Shown here: positions 8,246-9,993 of the stretch, piece by piece | Position numbering within the stretch: the stretch's first letter is position 1 | How the letters are laid out: every line of letters begins with the position of its first letter | Origin: a virus | Taxonomy: Duplodnaviria > Heunggongvirae > Uroviricota > Caudoviricetes | DNA length: 64,000 nucleotides | Strand: one strand, 5' to 3' | IMG/VR virus record: IMGVR_UViG_3300031134_000466 | Made by a program: the position numbers and the translations under genes | The notes under the pieces: model-generated | What the model was told of the DNA's origin: nothing | Databases searched by the model: none | Seen by the model: only the letters and a program-made list of their open reading frames with translations

Positions 8246-8998
8246 TTAGCGAATCTGACGGTTTGCACGCTGCACCTGGATGTACTCAGGGTATTCGTCA
8301 AGGAGAGCGTTGTACAGCTCGGTGCTGGTCAGCTTGTCCACATCGCCAACAGGCTTGTAGTCAGCGTTGTCCACGTAACGAGTCTTCAGGTCGTCCAGCT
8401 TCACGAGGAAGGGGAACTCCTCGCTACCGATGGAGAGGAACTGCCAGAAGATGGGGACGAAGGAAGCCTTCACCAGGGACTCCTGGGCCAGCTTACGGCT
8501 GTCAGGGCTACCGTCTGTCAGGAAGGTGACGTGAACAGGAAGCTCAGCAGGAGCGGAGAGAGGAGCGTTAGGAGTGGCAGTCTTGCCGAAGAGGCCGCCG
8601 AGACCCTTCTTGGTGGGGAAGTAGTGGTCGCGGATGAGGTCGAAGGCAGCGTGGTAAGCGGTGCTGGTCTTGCGGCGGTTGCCAAGAAGCTTAGCGAGAC
8701 CGTCACGGAAGTTGTCGATGGTCAGTTCGCCCAGGTACTCAGCCTCACGACCGAAGATGAAGATGTCAATAGCACCATCATCGTCAATCTGCGAACCGAA
8801 AGCCAGAACCTTCTCAGCAAGACGCTGCATTGCACCGCTGTTGTAGTGGTTGGTCATGGACATGGAGAAGTCAAGGCAGAGGGCAACCTTCGCACGGTGA
8901 CCCTCCAGACCCTTGCTCTTCAGGGTGTGGTTAGCGTTCTTGGAGAGACTCAGAAGCTCAGGAGCCTTCTGCTCAATCTTATCAAGTGAAATAGCCAT
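8246..8998 (-). CDS. vWA-domain protein of the TerF-C-terminal / TerY-like type
   Basis: 250 aa. 'ALCLDFSMSM' (MIDAS-like), 'FLTDGSPD', 'IFWQFLSIGSEEFPFLVKLDDL..RYVDNADY'. Strong C-ending/AAG codon bias. Confidence 0.7.
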   Translation of the reverse strand: MAISLDKIEQKAPELLSLSKNANHTLKSKGLEGHRAKVALCLDFSMSMTNHYNSGAMQRLAEKVLAFGSQIDDDGAIDIFIFGREAEYLGELTIDNFRDGLAKLLGNRRKTSTAYHAAFDLIRDHYFPTKKGLGGLFGKTATPNAPLSAPAELPVHVTFLTDGSPDSRKLAQESLVKASFVPIFWQFLSIGSEEFPFLVKLDDLKTRYVDNADYKPVGDVDKLTSTELYNALLDEYPEYIQVQRANRQIR

Positions 8999-9095
8999 AA
9001 CGGGTAAACCTTTCTAAAACTAATTGTTGTTACGTAAGTATTCGGTTCAAAACTGCAATAACTAAACCTTAGTCATCACAAAAGGGAAAGTCAAG

Positions 9096-9491
9096 TCAGT
9101 CCAGCAAAGACTCAATCTTTACTACCAACGGAGTCTTAGCAAGCCAGGTGTGAGCTGTCATGTCGATACATTTAGTTGCTTCTTCAATAAAATCTCGACG
9201 CTCCTGCTCAGAAGGCTTCAAATAATCATTCATGAACAGCATGATGTTAGTAGCATACCAGTCGATAATAGCAACCTGGTAATTTTCTGCTTCATTGAAG
9301 ATGAAACCCAGCACATTCACAAGGTAATCACGGTCCATTGATTCAAGCTTGAACACATCCCCTGTAATGTTCACCCAAAACTCATCCTGCATGAACACGC
9401 GTAAGTCAATACTACCATCAGTATGCTTTTCTTTAGGTTCAGGGAACTCTGGAAGCAAACCAGCTTCCACTAACCAAGTGTCATTCTGCAC
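9096..9491 (-). CDS. hypothetical protein
   Basis: The ORF is open to 9545. GTG 9491 has AAGGAGG 12 nt upstream and overlaps the upstream stop codon. ATG 9392 is an alternative start. The start is uncertain. Confidence 0.45.
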   Translation of the reverse strand: MQNDTWLVEAGLLPEFPEPKEKHTDGSIDLRVFMQDEFWVNITGDVFKLESMDRDYLVNVLGFIFNEAENYQVAIIDWYATNIMLFMNDYLKPSEQERRDFIEEATKCIDMTAHTWLAKTPLVVKIESLLD

Positions 9492-9993
9492 CTTCAAGGG
9501 CTGCCTCCTTCTCCTTGAATGCAATCCACTTCGGGCTAACCTCATCCACGTAGGTGTTCACGTGGTCAAGAAGCTCGGCAAGGGTTGCGTACTGAATCTT
9601 ACCGTCAAAGCTCGGGGCGAAAGGCTGACCCTGCCATGTCATGCGACGGTAAACCCAGCCATGCTCACGCTTAGCGAAAGTGATGGTGTTGACACCAGAG
9701 TCGATGTCAAGCGAGCGGGCTTCAACCTGCTTCAGGTACCAACCAGTAAGCTGGGTCTTACGGTAACGGATGTACTGGGCGACAAGCTTAGCGTCTTCCT
9801 CATCAGGAGCAAGGTAGTTCATGTAGTTGCTGTACTCACTGCTGTTATCAGGAACCACCAGAGCAGCGATGAAGAACGTGCCTACATGCATGTCCCTAAC
9901 GACAGGGACACGGTACTGGGCGACCCACGGGTGGTTGATGTCAACCTGGCTCAGGGTGGTCTCAGTGTAACCTTCGGCAATATCTGTACTCAT
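9481..9993 (-). CDS. hypothetical protein (high C-ending codon bias)
   Basis: ATG 9993 has GGAG 11 nt upstream. A TGGTAGAGT -10 lies at 10037-10045. Confidence 0.55.
   Translation of the reverse strand: MSTDIAEGYTETTLSQVDINHPWVAQYRVPVVRDMHVGTFFIAALVVPDNSSEYSNYMNYLAPDEEDAKLVAQYIRYRKTQLTGWYLKQVEARSLDIDSGVNTITFAKREHGWVYRRMTWQGQPFAPSFDGKIQYATLAELLDHVNTYVDEVSPKWIAFKEKEAALEGAE

What the first reader, a model, noticed from the sequence alone, without database searches (positions are those of the whole stretch)
8246..9993. Compositional and codon-bias island containing a TerF-C/TerY-type vWA gene
One 60-nt line inside the vWA gene (8521-8580) has 36/60 G+C by hand count. A typical line (20041-20100) has 28/60, and a line in the DUF805 gene (27781-27840) has 18/60. 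These are single-line hand counts, not window statistics. Reading the codons of 8246..8998 and 9481..9993 shows strong preference for AAG, GAC, TTC, TAC, AAC, ATC, CTG, GGT, CGT and GCT. That pattern fits either recent acquisition from a GC-richer actinobacterial genome or strong selection for translation efficiency in very highly expressed products. The vWA protein belongs to the family found in Ter (tellurite-resistance/stress) clusters, whose biochemical role is still unclear. Here it stands alone as a promoter- and terminator-bracketed cassette.
Basis: partly seen in the sequence, partly recalled or inferred. Interest (0 to 1): 0.5.

Follow-up and report, generated by a model that had tools for sequence, protein, structure and literature searches.

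The report
Codon-optimised phage vWA gene, not foreign
The GC-rich spike is real, but it is most likely the footprint of extreme codon optimisation on a conserved phage gene for a metal-binding vWA protein, built for high expression, rather than DNA recently imported from a GC-rich bacterium.

Summary
ORF 8246-8998(-) is the most GC-rich 753-bp stretch of the window: 56.0% against a mean of 45.2%. All the excess sits at third codon positions (GC3 0.71 vs 0.44; A-ending codons 2%; Nc 32.2, lowest of 66 ORFs). ORF 9481-9993(-) is also biased. The ORF between them and the flanks are ordinary, so this is two biased genes, not a contiguous island.

The window is the non-structural part of a very large phage-like genome. 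The vWA gene (Pfam PF10138, intact MIDAS motif) holds the same position in at least five diverged relatives. Position: RNR-beta, small ORFs, vWA, then a convergent membrane protein and ABC ATPase. In most relatives it is again the local codon-bias outlier.

Its codon style (GCT, GGT, CGT, CCT, AAG, TTC) differs from all 26 cellular actinobacterial homologues sampled (at most 54% identical; GCC/GCG, GGC, CGC). It also lies at the extreme of the genome's own main codon-usage axis. A clearly host-derived DnaK in the same window has fully phage-like GC3.

So recent import from a GC-rich genome is rejected, and codon selection, probably for high expression, is supported. Expression level and function are inferred, not shown. 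Phage TerF-type vWA genes are already described. Interest is modest.

The parts
8246..8998 (-). vWA-TerF-like protein gene (250 aa). It is a standalone vWA domain with MIDAS residues D43, S45, S47, T113 and D162. It is the strongest codon-bias and GC3 outlier of the window.
   Evidence: Family: Pfam PF10138 E=3e-45; phrog_5359 E=4e-46. Structure: AF2 model pLDDT 91.4. Best solved folds are the RGLG1/2/5 and copine BON1 vWA domains. Best viral fold is the Streptomyces phage Samisti12 vWA, TM 0.81. MIDAS columns are invariant or near-invariant in 37 homologues. Composition: GC3 0.708, Nc 32.2, A3 0.02.
8190..8237 (.). Perfect 22-bp hairpin between the convergent vWA and membrane-protein genes. 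It is probably a bidirectional intrinsic terminator.
   Evidence: Folds at -38.1 kcal/mol; shuffles give -10.6+-2.7, z=-10.3. A different hairpin in the same position follows the vWA stop codon in L001, L002, L004, L005/L006 and L009. The consensus terminator scan missed it.
9066..9094 (-). Candidate host-type promoter, TTGACT-N17-TAAGGT (-10 of the TAnnnT type), lying directly after the stop codon of the upstream ORF.
   Evidence: Read from the sequence. L003 has TTGACT-N17-TAGAGT and L004 has TTGACT-N17-TAACAT at the equivalent place. The pattern occurs 6 times in the window against 2.5 expected, which is not significant. Inferred, not shown.
9009..9015 (-). Shine-Dalgarno sequence AGAAAGG, 10 nt upstream of the ATG at 8998.
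   Evidence: GAAAGG is conserved upstream of the orthologues in L003, L004, L005, L006 and L009. Duplex energy with the anti-SD is -6.4 kcal/mol, against a window median of -3.45.
9481..9993 (-). Lineage-specific ORF (170 aa from ATG 9993) of unknown function. It ranks third on the main codon-usage axis (PC1).
   Evidence: GC3 0.633 (z=+5.4), Nc 36.7; rank 3 on PC1. Only 2 homologues were found among 5.8 billion proteins. There is a 48%-identical syntenic copy in L004. No Pfam, PHROG, NCBIfam or PADLOC hit.
9096..9470 (-). Intervening small ORF with ordinary composition. It breaks the supposed island. Its start codon is uncertain.
   Evidence: Tested over 9096-9392: GC3 0.495, equal to the simulated 0.495 (z=0.0). 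GC of 9096-9470 is 42.4%. Homologues lie next to vWA in L004, L005 and L006.
5837..8191 (+). ABC ATPase (5837-6619) plus a 523-aa polytopic membrane protein (6620-8191), convergent with vWA. This is a conserved syntenic neighbour; a functional link is not shown.
   Evidence: The ATPase matches phrog_293 and NCBIfam DrrA-like models below cut-off. The same convergent arrangement occurs in L002, L005, L006 and L007, at 53-74% identity.

Best explanation
The GC peak is a by-product of very strong synonymous-codon selection on one conserved gene of a huge phage-like genome. It is not a mark of foreign DNA.

**What is shown.**
- The gene encodes a standalone TerF-type vWA domain with an intact MIDAS metal site.
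- It has kept its position (RNR-beta, small ORFs, vWA, then a convergent membrane protein and ABC ATPase) across relatives whose proteins are 39-87% identical to those of the window.
- It uses almost only Y-ending codons in four-fold boxes, C-ending codons in two-fold pyrimidine boxes, and G-ending codons for Lys, Glu and Gln. A-ending codons are 2%.
- That direction is the window's own main codon-usage axis, taken to its extreme.

**What is inferred.**
- With its Shine-Dalgarno site, strong terminator and probable own host-type promoter, it looks like a monocistronic unit built for high-level translation by host ribosomes. It is probably one of the most abundant non-structural products.
- High abundance suits a stoichiometric role rather than a catalytic one. 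My best guess follows what has been proposed for the TerF-vWA and TelA parts of Ter systems. The protein would act as a metal-dependent (MIDAS) adaptor or scaffold at the inner face of the membrane. There it would protect the infected cell's envelope or exclude superinfecting phages.
- The host is probably an actinobacterium of the Micrococcales or Microbacteriaceae type.
For: **Composition.** GC3 z=+9.5, A3 z=-8.8, Nc 32.2 vs 50.3+-3.1. GC1 and GC2 are ordinary. The bias stops at the gene borders.

**Same axis as the genome.** I ran a PCA of RSCU on the other 65 ORFs only. The vWA gene projects at 4.23 on PC1; the other ORFs reach at most 4.02, with sd 1.61. Positive loadings are CGT, CTT, CAG, CCT, AAG, TAC, GCT and GGT. 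Negative loadings are AGA, CAA, CCA, TTA and AAA. The next genes along the axis are the exonuclease, ORF 9481-9993, RNR-beta, Hsp70, PARP and dCMP deaminase.

**Synteny.** L002, L004, L005, L006 and L007 carry the same gene order.

**Recurrent bias in orthologues.**
- L003-L006: GC3 0.62-0.68, A3 0.02-0.05, Nc 36-39; highest GC3 in each multi-gene locus (L004-L006; L003 holds only the vWA gene).
- L009, a 35% GC genome: lowest Nc of its locus (34.8), with GCT 23/32.
- L042: GC3 and A3 rank 1 of 16. L040: GC3 rank 2 of 21.

**Bias is maintained, not just inherited.** Against L004 and L005, the same codon is used at 0.61-0.63 of conserved residues, against 0.53-0.56 expected from independent draws. 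Synonymous sites are therefore near saturation.

**Not the donor's codon style.** The 26 cellular homologues sampled are at most 54% identical and have a T-ending share of four-fold codons of 0.01-0.19, against 0.57 here. Arthrobacter and Microbacteriaceae genes use GCC/GCG, GGC, CGC and CCG.

**Internal control.** The window's DnaK is 73-75% identical to Microbacteriaceae DnaK, yet its GC3 is 0.43 against 0.95 in the cellular gene. Imported genes in this lineage do lose host composition.

**Phylogeny.** Window, L003 and L004 form a clade with 95% bootstrap and no cellular member inside it.

**Expression signals.** Hairpin, SD and promoter-like motif conserved in relatives. Stronger SD sites go weakly with higher PC1 (Spearman -0.29, p=0.019).

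**Function.**
- Iyer et al. 2021 (PMC7824862) describe TerF-vWA and TelA in jumbo phages. They propose sub-membrane structures that exclude superinfecting phages.
- terD operons are among the highly transcribed genes of Jug jumbo phages (PMC12880540).
- Relatives place the vWA gene next to TelA (L001), next to ATPgrasp_Ter (L009, L040), or near PspA (L042).
Against: - There are no expression data.
- The host is unidentified, so 'optimal' codons are defined only from within the element.
- The window holds no capsid or tail genes against which to calibrate the axis.
- The orthologues in L002 (GC3 0.50, Nc 44.5) and L001 (GC3 0.44) are weakly biased or not biased. The selection is therefore not universal in the family.
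- The preference for T-ending four-fold codons is not what highly expressed genes of the one candidate host-lineage genome sampled show. It needs the extra assumption that G34/I34 tRNAs read NNY and that the phage's AT pressure picks T.
- The promoter motif is not statistically enriched, and the SD correlation is weak.
- The functional proposal rests on published inference about Ter systems, not on any test. No Ter partner is present in this window.
Confidence: 0.62

Rival explanations
1. Recent horizontal acquisition of a cassette from a GC-richer actinobacterial genome. On this reading the high GC3 is unameliorated donor composition.
For: - The closest named homologues are chromosomal genes of high-GC Actinomycetota: Arthrobacter, Sinomonas, Glaciihabitans and Nocardioides, at 47-54% identity.
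- These are far closer than homologues in isolated phages, which are about 30% identical.
- The two-fold codon choices (AAG, GAG, CAG, NAC) match high-GC actinobacterial usage. RSCU correlation with a Microbacteriaceae dnaK is 0.47 for the vWA gene, against -0.22 for the rest of the window.
Against: - Position is conserved in five diverged relatives.
- The best cellular identity is only 54%, below the phage-to-phage identities of 57-82%.
- The T-ending share of four-fold codons is 0.57, against 0.01-0.19 in cells. NCG codons are 4%, against 25-39%.
- The flanks are 34-46% GC, and the ORF between the two biased genes is ordinary.
- There are no mobility genes or repeats at the borders.
- The second biased gene is an ORFan with no cellular homologue.
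- The host-derived DnaK is fully ameliorated.
Confidence: 0.04
2. Ancient host-derived gene that is still ameliorating slowly. The clade's ancestor took the gene from a high-GC actinobacterium and third positions have not yet reached phage equilibrium.
For: - Phage and cellular sequences interleave in the deep, unresolved part of the tree.
- The orthologues in L004 and L005 still use NCG codons at 23-31%.
- GC3 differs between lineages, from 0.34 to 0.71.
Against: - Synonymous sites are near saturation between lineages, yet the bias persists.
- DnaK is much closer to its cellular source (74%) but is already at GC3 0.43.
- Mutation-driven decay cannot remove NCG codons to 4% while keeping AAG, CAG, TTC, TAC, AAC and CAC at 100%.
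- In the 35% GC genome L009 the gene is biased towards T-ending codons (GCT 23/32), not towards GC.
- In L004 and L005, NCG codons are also raised in another strongly biased gene (rIIB) and in the genome pool. There they belong to that genome's own favoured set.
Confidence: 0.1
3. Selection at the nucleic-acid level that is unrelated to translation rate. Examples are avoidance of A-rich or A-ending motifs cut by host endoribonucleases or toxins, mRNA stability or structure, or avoidance of restriction sites in a gene that must act first.
For: - The near-total avoidance of A at third positions (2%) is the most consistent feature among the close orthologues (A3 0.02-0.05 in L003-L006).
- GC3 rises from 0.50 in the first 20 codons to 0.80 in the last third.
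- The element carries RNA-repair genes (two T4-type RNA ligases and a PNK), which implies that RNA cleavage is a live conflict.
Against: - The preferences are codon-specific (CGT over CGC, GCT over GCC, no AGA, AGG or CGA) and frame-specific. The trinucleotides TTA, CTA and TCA occur once in frame but 8-9 times out of frame. This fits reading-frame selection better than motif avoidance.
- The same axis orders many enzymes of the window.
- No specific motif was identified.
Confidence: 0.12
4. The bias reflects an overlapping antisense gene (long + strand ORFs 8236-8529 and 8531-8989), or an embedded structured RNA.
For: Two long antisense ORFs of 97 and 152 aa cover the gene.
Against: - They follow automatically from the near absence of in-frame TTA, CTA and TCA codons (1 in frame).
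- Their translations are low-complexity.
- There is no Rfam match anywhere in the window.
- The sense protein is strongly conserved and folds with pLDDT 91.
Confidence: 0.02

Closest known systems
TerF C-terminal vWA domain family (Pfam PF10138, vWA-TerF-like) of Ter tellurite-resistance and stress clusters
   Same: Full-length HMM match well above the gathering score. vWA Rossmann-like fold with the DxSxS...T...D MIDAS motif. Some relatives sit next to other Ter-associated genes: TelA and ATPgrasp_Ter.
   Different: It is a standalone 250-aa protein with no N-terminal TerD domain. No TerD, TelA, TerB, TerC or Ter biosynthetic genes were found in the scanned ORFs of this window. It is carried by a huge phage-like genome rather than a plasmid or chromosome.
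Ter modules of jumbo phages (Iyer, Anantharaman, Krishnan, Burroughs & Aravind 2021, PMC7824862). Examples: Acinetobacter phage vB_AbaM_ME3; Klebsiella phages phiKp34 and KP2025.
   Same: It is a phage-borne TerF-type vWA. The ME3 vWA is the second-best viral fold match, TM 0.69. The Klebsiella phage copies are about 29% identical. The proposed role is a sub-membrane structure for superinfection exclusion or stress tolerance.
   Different: In those phages the vWA lies inside a cluster. KP2025 has an integral membrane protein, TelA, vWA and a TerD-like gene. Here the gene is solitary. Extreme codon bias was not mentioned in the passages I read from those papers.
Standalone vWA proteins of large actinophages (Streptomyces BE-cluster phages such as Samisti12; Frankenweenie; Gordonia and Rhodococcus phages)
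   Same: Samisti12 is the best viral structural match: TM 0.81, rmsd 2.5 A. These are standalone genes among hypothetical genes, with actinobacterial hosts.
   Different: They are only 27-31% identical. The window protein belongs to a tighter subfamily shared with Micrococcales and Nocardioides chromosomes at 47-54% identity.
Copine and RGLG-type vWA domains (plant RGLG1/2/5, BON1)
   Same: Closest solved folds: Foldseek E about 1e-8, TM 0.6-0.66.
   Different: Only 12-17% identity. Those are eukaryotic multidomain proteins (with C2 or RING domains). The similarity is a fold-level resemblance only.
Host-adapted codon bias of abundantly expressed phage genes (Lucks et al. 2008, PMC2266997)
   Same: A gene-specific rise in preferred codons within one phage genome, along a single axis.
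   Different: There, according to my own recollection of that paper (only its abstract was retrieved here), the biased genes are mainly structural. Here the extreme gene is a non-structural accessory protein of unknown function.

Membership tests
Pfam PF10138 vWA-TerF-like | Whole-protein HMM score above the curated gathering threshold | tested here: met
   155.3 bits against a cut-off of 29.4, E=3e-45. All 120 listed homologues carry PF10138.
vWA / MIDAS domain superfamily | Alpha/beta vWA fold with the metal-ion-dependent adhesion site DxSxS...T...D | tested here: met
   AF2 pLDDT 91.4, pTM 0.90. Top PDB and BFVD matches are all vWA domains. D43, S45, T113 and D162 are invariant and S47 is at least 90% conserved in 37 sequences. 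Metal binding itself was not tested.
TerF protein (terZABCDEF operon) | N-terminal TerD domain fused to the C-terminal vWA domain | tested here: not met
   The 250-aa protein has no TerD match. Residues 1-30 form two short helices.
Ter stress-response system (gene-neighbourhood definition) | Co-location with TerD, TerB, TerC, TelA or the PRTase/HAD/ATP-grasp biosynthetic genes | tested here: not met
   No such domain appeared in any ORF scanned with Pfam or PHROGs across the 64 kb; about ten small ORFs were not scanned. The feature is met in relatives: TelA in L001, ATPgrasp_Ter in L009 and L040.
TerY-P triad (TerY vWA + PP2C phosphatase + Ser/Thr kinase) | TerY-type vWA next to a phosphatase and a kinase | tested here: not met
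   The match is to the TerF-type model. No PP2C or Pkinase domain was found in the neighbouring ORFs 5149-12155. The definition of the triad is from my own knowledge of Anantharaman et al. 2012.
Horizontally acquired genomic island | Contiguous atypical composition including flanks, donor-like codon usage, and absence from sister genomes | tested here: not met
   The signal is gene-limited and not contiguous. Codon style is unlike that of any cellular homologue. The gene is present at the same site in L002 and L004-L007.
Highly expressed gene under translational selection | Extreme position on the genome's main codon-usage axis, shared with other presumably abundant products, plus strong initiation signals | tested here: met
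   PC1 projection 4.23 (maximum of the other ORFs 4.02). SD AGAAAGG. The bias recurs in orthologues.
Highly expressed gene under translational selection | Measured high mRNA or protein abundance, and a match to host tRNA supply | not testable with these tools
   There are no transcriptome or proteome data and the host is unidentified. The only proxy is a Microbacteriaceae dnaK locus, which matches the two-fold codon choices but not the four-fold ones.

The most novel reading that the evidence does not exclude
The TerF-type vWA protein would be the most heavily translated early product of a family of huge actinobacterial phage-like elements, some of whose relatives assemble to about 0.88 Mb. 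It would act stoichiometrically in one of two ways. It could build a MIDAS-dependent sub-membrane lattice that blocks superinfection. Or it could act as a decoy or dominant-negative copy of the host's own standalone vWA stress protein, which is 47-54% identical in Micrococcales and Nocardioides, and so disarm a Ter-like envelope defence. If so, codon bias would have flagged a key conflict protein whose biochemical role in Ter systems has been open for decades.
Probability: 0.12. Interest if true: 0.6.

Novelty: new member of a known kind. Interest (0 to 1): 0.3.

Why it matters
The finding shows that a sharp GC/GC3 spike inside a phage genome can mark a gene under intense codon selection rather than imported DNA. 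It picks out, from a region full of unknown genes, one conserved protein that the element probably makes in large amounts. The biochemical role of the TerF-type vWA domain remains unclear. A phage copy that is solitary, conserved and apparently highly expressed is a convenient handle for experiments on localisation, binding partners and MIDAS mutants. The result does not change the known picture, because Ter-type genes in jumbo phages are already described. The larger context noticed in passing, relatives assembling to about 0.88 Mb, may deserve more attention than the finding itself.

Tried and rejected
**Searches that found nothing**
- Megablast of 8000-12200 against 50,697 phage records: no match.
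- IMG/VR scans with the vWA protein and with the DnaK protein: no relatives.
- PDB sequence search with the vWA protein: nothing meaningful.
- NCBIfam and PADLOC scans of the vWA protein and its unknown neighbours: no hits.
- Rfam over the whole window: no family.
- tRNA scans of the window and eight related loci: none. A tRNA-supply argument could therefore not be made.
- A regular-expression search for WhiB, as an actinophage marker: none in the window.
- tblastn of Hsp70 and of the exonuclease against isolated phages: no close relative and no host clue.
- Homologue search for ORF 9481-9993: only two relatives, so no structure or function could be pursued.

**Checks with limited value**
- The consensus promoter/terminator scan found neither signal next to the gene. 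The hairpin had to be shown by folding.
- The TTGACT-N16-18-TAnnnT pattern is not significantly enriched.
- An ABC ATPase lies near the cellular vWA gene in three Nocardioides loci. ORF calling in that 70% GC DNA was too ambiguous to interpret, and the phage membrane protein has no match there. I dropped this as probable chance.
- One candidate host-lineage locus (L045) turned out to be an ordinary 70% GC Microbacteriaceae genome. It served as a control but not as a codon reference for the true host.

**Ideas rejected or weakened**
- Antisense ORFs: rejected as a by-product of codon choice.
- I first treated avoidance of NCG codons as a family-wide argument against amelioration. It holds for the window gene (4%) but not for L004 and L005 (23-31%), where NCG codons belong to that genome's own favoured set.
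Full report

Yes. The three 60-nt hand counts are exact: 36, 28 and 18 G+C.

- ORF 8246-8998(-) is 56.0% GC in a window that averages 45.2%. It sits at the top of 1265 sliding 753-bp windows, about 4 sd above the mean.
- I chose one set of 66 non-overlapping ORFs. In that set GC1 (0.60) and GC2 (0.38) of this gene are ordinary. 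GC3 is 0.708 against a mean of 0.440 (sd 0.076).
- It has the lowest effective number of codons (Nc 32.2) and only 2% A-ending codons.
- I redrew synonymous codons for the same protein from the usage of the rest of the window. This gives GC3 0.429+-0.029 (observed z=+9.5), A3 z=-8.8, and Nc 50.3+-3.1 with none of 300 draws below 41.7.
AAG 18/18, TTC 14/14, AAC 10/10, TAC 9/9, CAC 6/6 and CAG 8/8. GCT is 70%, GGT 62%, CGT 67% and CCT 73%. There are no TTA, TTG, AGA, AGG, CGA or CGG codons.
- The second ORF named, 9481-9993(-), is also biased: GC3 0.633 (z=+5.4), Nc 36.7.
- The region is not a contiguous island. The ORF between the two (9096-9470) is ordinary (z=0.0), the spacer upstream of the vWA gene is 34% GC, and GC falls to 39-42% between 9000 and 9400.

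**2. What is the element?**

The window has no tRNA genes and no Rfam match. It is packed with genes typical of the non-structural part of a very large phage:

- an SNF2 helicase, a YqaJ-RNase T exonuclease and MazG;
- a dNMP-kinase-like, intein and C5-methylase fusion;
- RNR-beta and a dCMP deaminase;
- a PARP-WGR protein and three ADP-ribosyltransferase-like proteins;
- two T4-type RNA ligases with a PNK;
- a DnaB fragment, NucS, two NAD synthases and a full-length Hsp70.

A relative carries T4 rIIB. Nothing similar exists among isolated phages at the DNA level.

The Hsp70 is 73-75% identical to DnaK of Microbacteriaceae, including Lacisediminihabitans, Leifsonia, Microcella and Rhodoglobus. 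The vWA subfamily has cellular members only in Actinomycetota. The host is therefore probably a Micrococcales-like actinobacterium. That is an inference.

**3. The gene and its protein.**

- The 250-aa product matches Pfam PF10138 (vWA-TerF-like) at E=3e-45 and phrog_5359 at E=4e-46.
- An AlphaFold model built on 37 homologues is confident: pLDDT 91.4, pTM 0.90.
- The closest solved folds are the copine- and RGLG-type vWA domains.
- The closest viral models are the vWA proteins of Streptomyces phage Samisti12 (TM 0.81) and Acinetobacter phage ME3 (TM 0.69).
- The MIDAS residues D43, S45, S47, T113 and D162 are invariant or nearly so. So is a C-terminal R..DNADY motif.
- There is no TerD domain, so this is not a TerF protein. 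It is a standalone TerF-type vWA.

**4. Comparative genomics.**

Exact-protein look-ups placed homologues on metagenomic contigs.

- L002, L004, L005, L006 and L007 share the order RNR-beta, variable small ORFs, vWA, then a convergent 524-aa membrane protein and ABC ATPase.
- Neighbour identities to the window are 53-87%, and vWA identities are 57-61%. L003, a 1-kb contig, holds an 82%-identical copy.
- The gene is therefore an old, vertically kept component of this lineage.
- In L003-L006 the orthologue again has the highest GC3 of its locus where neighbours are present (L004-L006): GC3 0.62-0.68, A3 0.02-0.05, Nc 36-39.
- In the 35% GC genome L009 it has the lowest Nc (34.8). There the bias runs towards T-ending codons (GCT 23/32, AAC 10/11) rather than towards GC.
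- In L042 it ranks first of 16 for GC3 and A3, and in L040 second of 21 for GC3. In L001 it ranks second of 21 for GC3.
- L002 is the exception: GC3 0.50, Nc 44.5.

**5. Foreign DNA or codon selection?** Five tests bear on this.

(i) Codon style.
- All 26 cellular homologues sampled (at most 54% identical) have GC3 0.61-0.99.
- Their T-ending share of four-fold codons is 0.01-0.19, against 0.57 in the window gene.
- Arthrobacter uses GCC/GCG, GGC and CGG/CGC.

(ii) Axis.
- I computed a PCA of RSCU on the other 65 ORFs. Its first axis carries 21% of the variance.
- Positive loadings are CGT, CTT, CAG, CCT, AAG, TAC, GCT and GGT. Negative loadings are AGA, CAA, CCA, TTA and AAA.
- The vWA gene projects at its extreme: 4.23, against a maximum of 4.02 and sd 1.61 for the others.
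- The next genes are the exonuclease, ORF 9481-9993, RNR-beta, Hsp70, PNK and PARP.
- The gene is thus the end of a continuous, genome-intrinsic gradient and not a discrete alien.

(iii) Internal control.
- The clearly host-derived Hsp70 is 74% identical to cellular DnaK.
- Its GC3 is 0.43, while a Microbacteriaceae dnaK has 0.95.
- Imported genes in this lineage do lose donor composition.

(iv) Saturation.
- At residues conserved between the window gene and L004 or L005, the same codon is used in 0.61-0.63 of cases.
- Independent draws from each gene's own usage would give 0.53-0.56.
- The shared bias is therefore maintained and not merely inherited.

(v) Pattern.
- G-ending codons are 95% in the Lys, Glu and Gln boxes, but NCG codons are only 4%.
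- Uniform G/C-to-A/T decay cannot produce that combination.

Two caveats apply. In L004 and L005, NCG codons are 23-31% in the vWA gene. They are also raised in rIIB and in the pooled genes of those genomes, so each orthologue exaggerates its own genome's tendency. Also, an NJ tree supports window+L003+L004 at 95% bootstrap with no cellular member inside, but deeper nodes are unresolved and phage and cellular sequences interleave. Old exchanges in either direction are likely.

**6. Expression signals.**

- A perfect 22-bp hairpin at 8190-8237 (-38.1 kcal/mol, z=-10.3) separates the convergent genes. A different hairpin occupies the same place after the orthologue in every related locus with downstream sequence (L003's contig ends in a G run 25 nt after the stop).
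- AGAAAGG lies 10 nt before the ATG, and GAAAGG is conserved in relatives.
- Directly after the upstream stop codon lies TTGACT-N17-TAAGGT. L003 has TTGACT-N17-TAGAGT and L004 has TTGACT-N17-TAACAT at the same place.
- The -10 fits the actinobacterial TAnnnT type (my own knowledge). The pattern is not significantly enriched in the window, and the consensus scan did not call it.
- Across ORFs, stronger SD pairing goes weakly with higher PC1 (rho=-0.29, p=0.019).
- Together these suggest a monocistronic unit transcribed by host polymerase and built for high output. That is inferred.

**7. Likely function.**

- High abundance fits a stoichiometric role. Published comparative work on jumbo phages lists the TerF-vWA and TelA as components forming sub-membrane structures. 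It proposes that phage Ter modules exclude superinfecting phages or buffer envelope and xenobiotic stress (PMC7824862; see also PMC8386662).
- terD operons, one beside a pspA-like gene, are among the highly transcribed genes of Jug jumbo phages (PMC12880540).
- In relatives of this window the vWA gene lies next to TelA (L001), next to ATPgrasp_Ter (L009, L040), or about 4 kb from PspA (L042). In Klebsiella phage KP2025 it lies between TelA and a TerD-like gene.
- In this window no Ter partner was found in the ORFs scanned.
- I therefore propose, at roughly 30% confidence for this step, a MIDAS-dependent adaptor or scaffold at the membrane.
- A functional link with the conserved convergent ABC transporter pair is possible but untested.

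**8. Verdict.**

The protein is a new member of a known family in a known kind of setting, phage-borne Ter-type genes. The conserved extreme codon bias is a useful but modest new detail. Interest is 0.3.

**9. Side observation.**

- Window 28539-58104 is collinear with L043: 21 proteins at 32-82% identity, most near 70-78%.
- L043 comes from contigs of 880,409 bp (ENA) and 880,970 bp (JGI) in independent assemblies. Other homologue-bearing contigs measure 828-907 kb.
- The largest phage genome reported in the literature I could search is 841.7 kb, with 55% GC, and is clearly a different entity (bioRxiv 10.1101/2025.01.14.633092).
- I could not establish whether the ~0.88 Mb contigs are complete phage genomes. 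No structural genes lie in the pieces I could read.

Noticed in passing
window 28539-58104; L043/L044 1-21854: The window is collinear with loci from contigs of about 880 kb. 21 proteins match at 32-82% identity, most near 70-78%, and L043 is 45.6% GC. Two independent assemblies give 880,409 bp (ENA ERZ27247389 k141_483817) and 880,970 bp (JGI 3300031112 Ga0308156_1000013). DnaK and vWA homologues also sit on contigs of 828-907 kb. If these are complete phage genomes they exceed the 841.7-kb record I found (bioRxiv 10.1101/2025.01.14.633092). Phage identity and completeness were not established.
   Followed up: partly
window 42826-44685 (+): A full-length Hsp70/DnaK (772 bits to PF00012). It is 73-75% identical to Microbacteriaceae DnaK and 80% identical to copies on the ~880-kb contigs. 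Its GC3 is 0.43 against 0.95 in a cellular dnaK, so it is host-derived and fully ameliorated. It is the best clue to the host lineage.
   Followed up: partly
window 27746-28399 (-): The opposite compositional outlier: 35.9% GC, GC3 0.28, lowest score on the codon-usage axis (-3.37). It had no PHROG hit, and I did not scan it with Pfam. It is a better candidate for a recent import than the vWA gene.
   Followed up: no
window 26372-27676 (+): A PARP catalytic domain with an N-terminal WGR domain (PF00644 E=2e-29; phrog_23333). It is also codon-biased (GC3 0.60, z=+6.4). The window also holds three ADP-ribosyltransferase-like ORFs (28539-29579, 30500-31465, 51758-52729) and two NAD synthases (56409-57374, 62265-63158).
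   Followed up: no
window 18430-21147 (+): A single 905-aa ORF that combines a dNMP-kinase-like N-terminus, a Hint/intein segment and a C5 cytosine DNA methylase.
   Followed up: no
window 5837-8191 (+): A DrrA-like ABC ATPase plus a 523-aa polytopic membrane protein with no family match. The pair is always convergent with the vWA gene in relatives L002, L005, L006 and L007. This could be plain synteny or a functional pairing.
   Followed up: partly
L014, L016, L019, L036 (match at about 6001-6780): In several Arthrobacter and Pseudarthrobacter genomes the chromosomal vWA homologue has lower GC (0.56-0.58, GC3 0.65-0.74) than its locus (0.61-0.63). This hints at phage-to-cell transfer or a prophage location.
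   Followed up: no
L001 10982-12079; L009 8937-10016; L040 11538-12599; L042 5214-6026: In more distant relatives the vWA gene lies next to TelA, next to ATPgrasp_Ter, or near PspA_IM30. All three are Ter-associated or membrane-stress genes.
   Followed up: partly
window 21148-23186 and 36527-38231: Envelope-related genes that are unusual for a phage: a signal peptidase S26, a Wzy_C O-antigen-ligase-like protein, and an ArsP_1 permease paired with DUF1980. There is also a DUF4126 membrane protein at 59642-60238.
   Followed up: no
window 39328-40449, 50774-51706, 54122-55363: An RNA-repair set: two T4 Rnl1-type RNA ligases and a polynucleotide kinase/phosphatase. The set is conserved in L043, which implies a conflict with host RNA-cleaving defences.
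   Followed up: no
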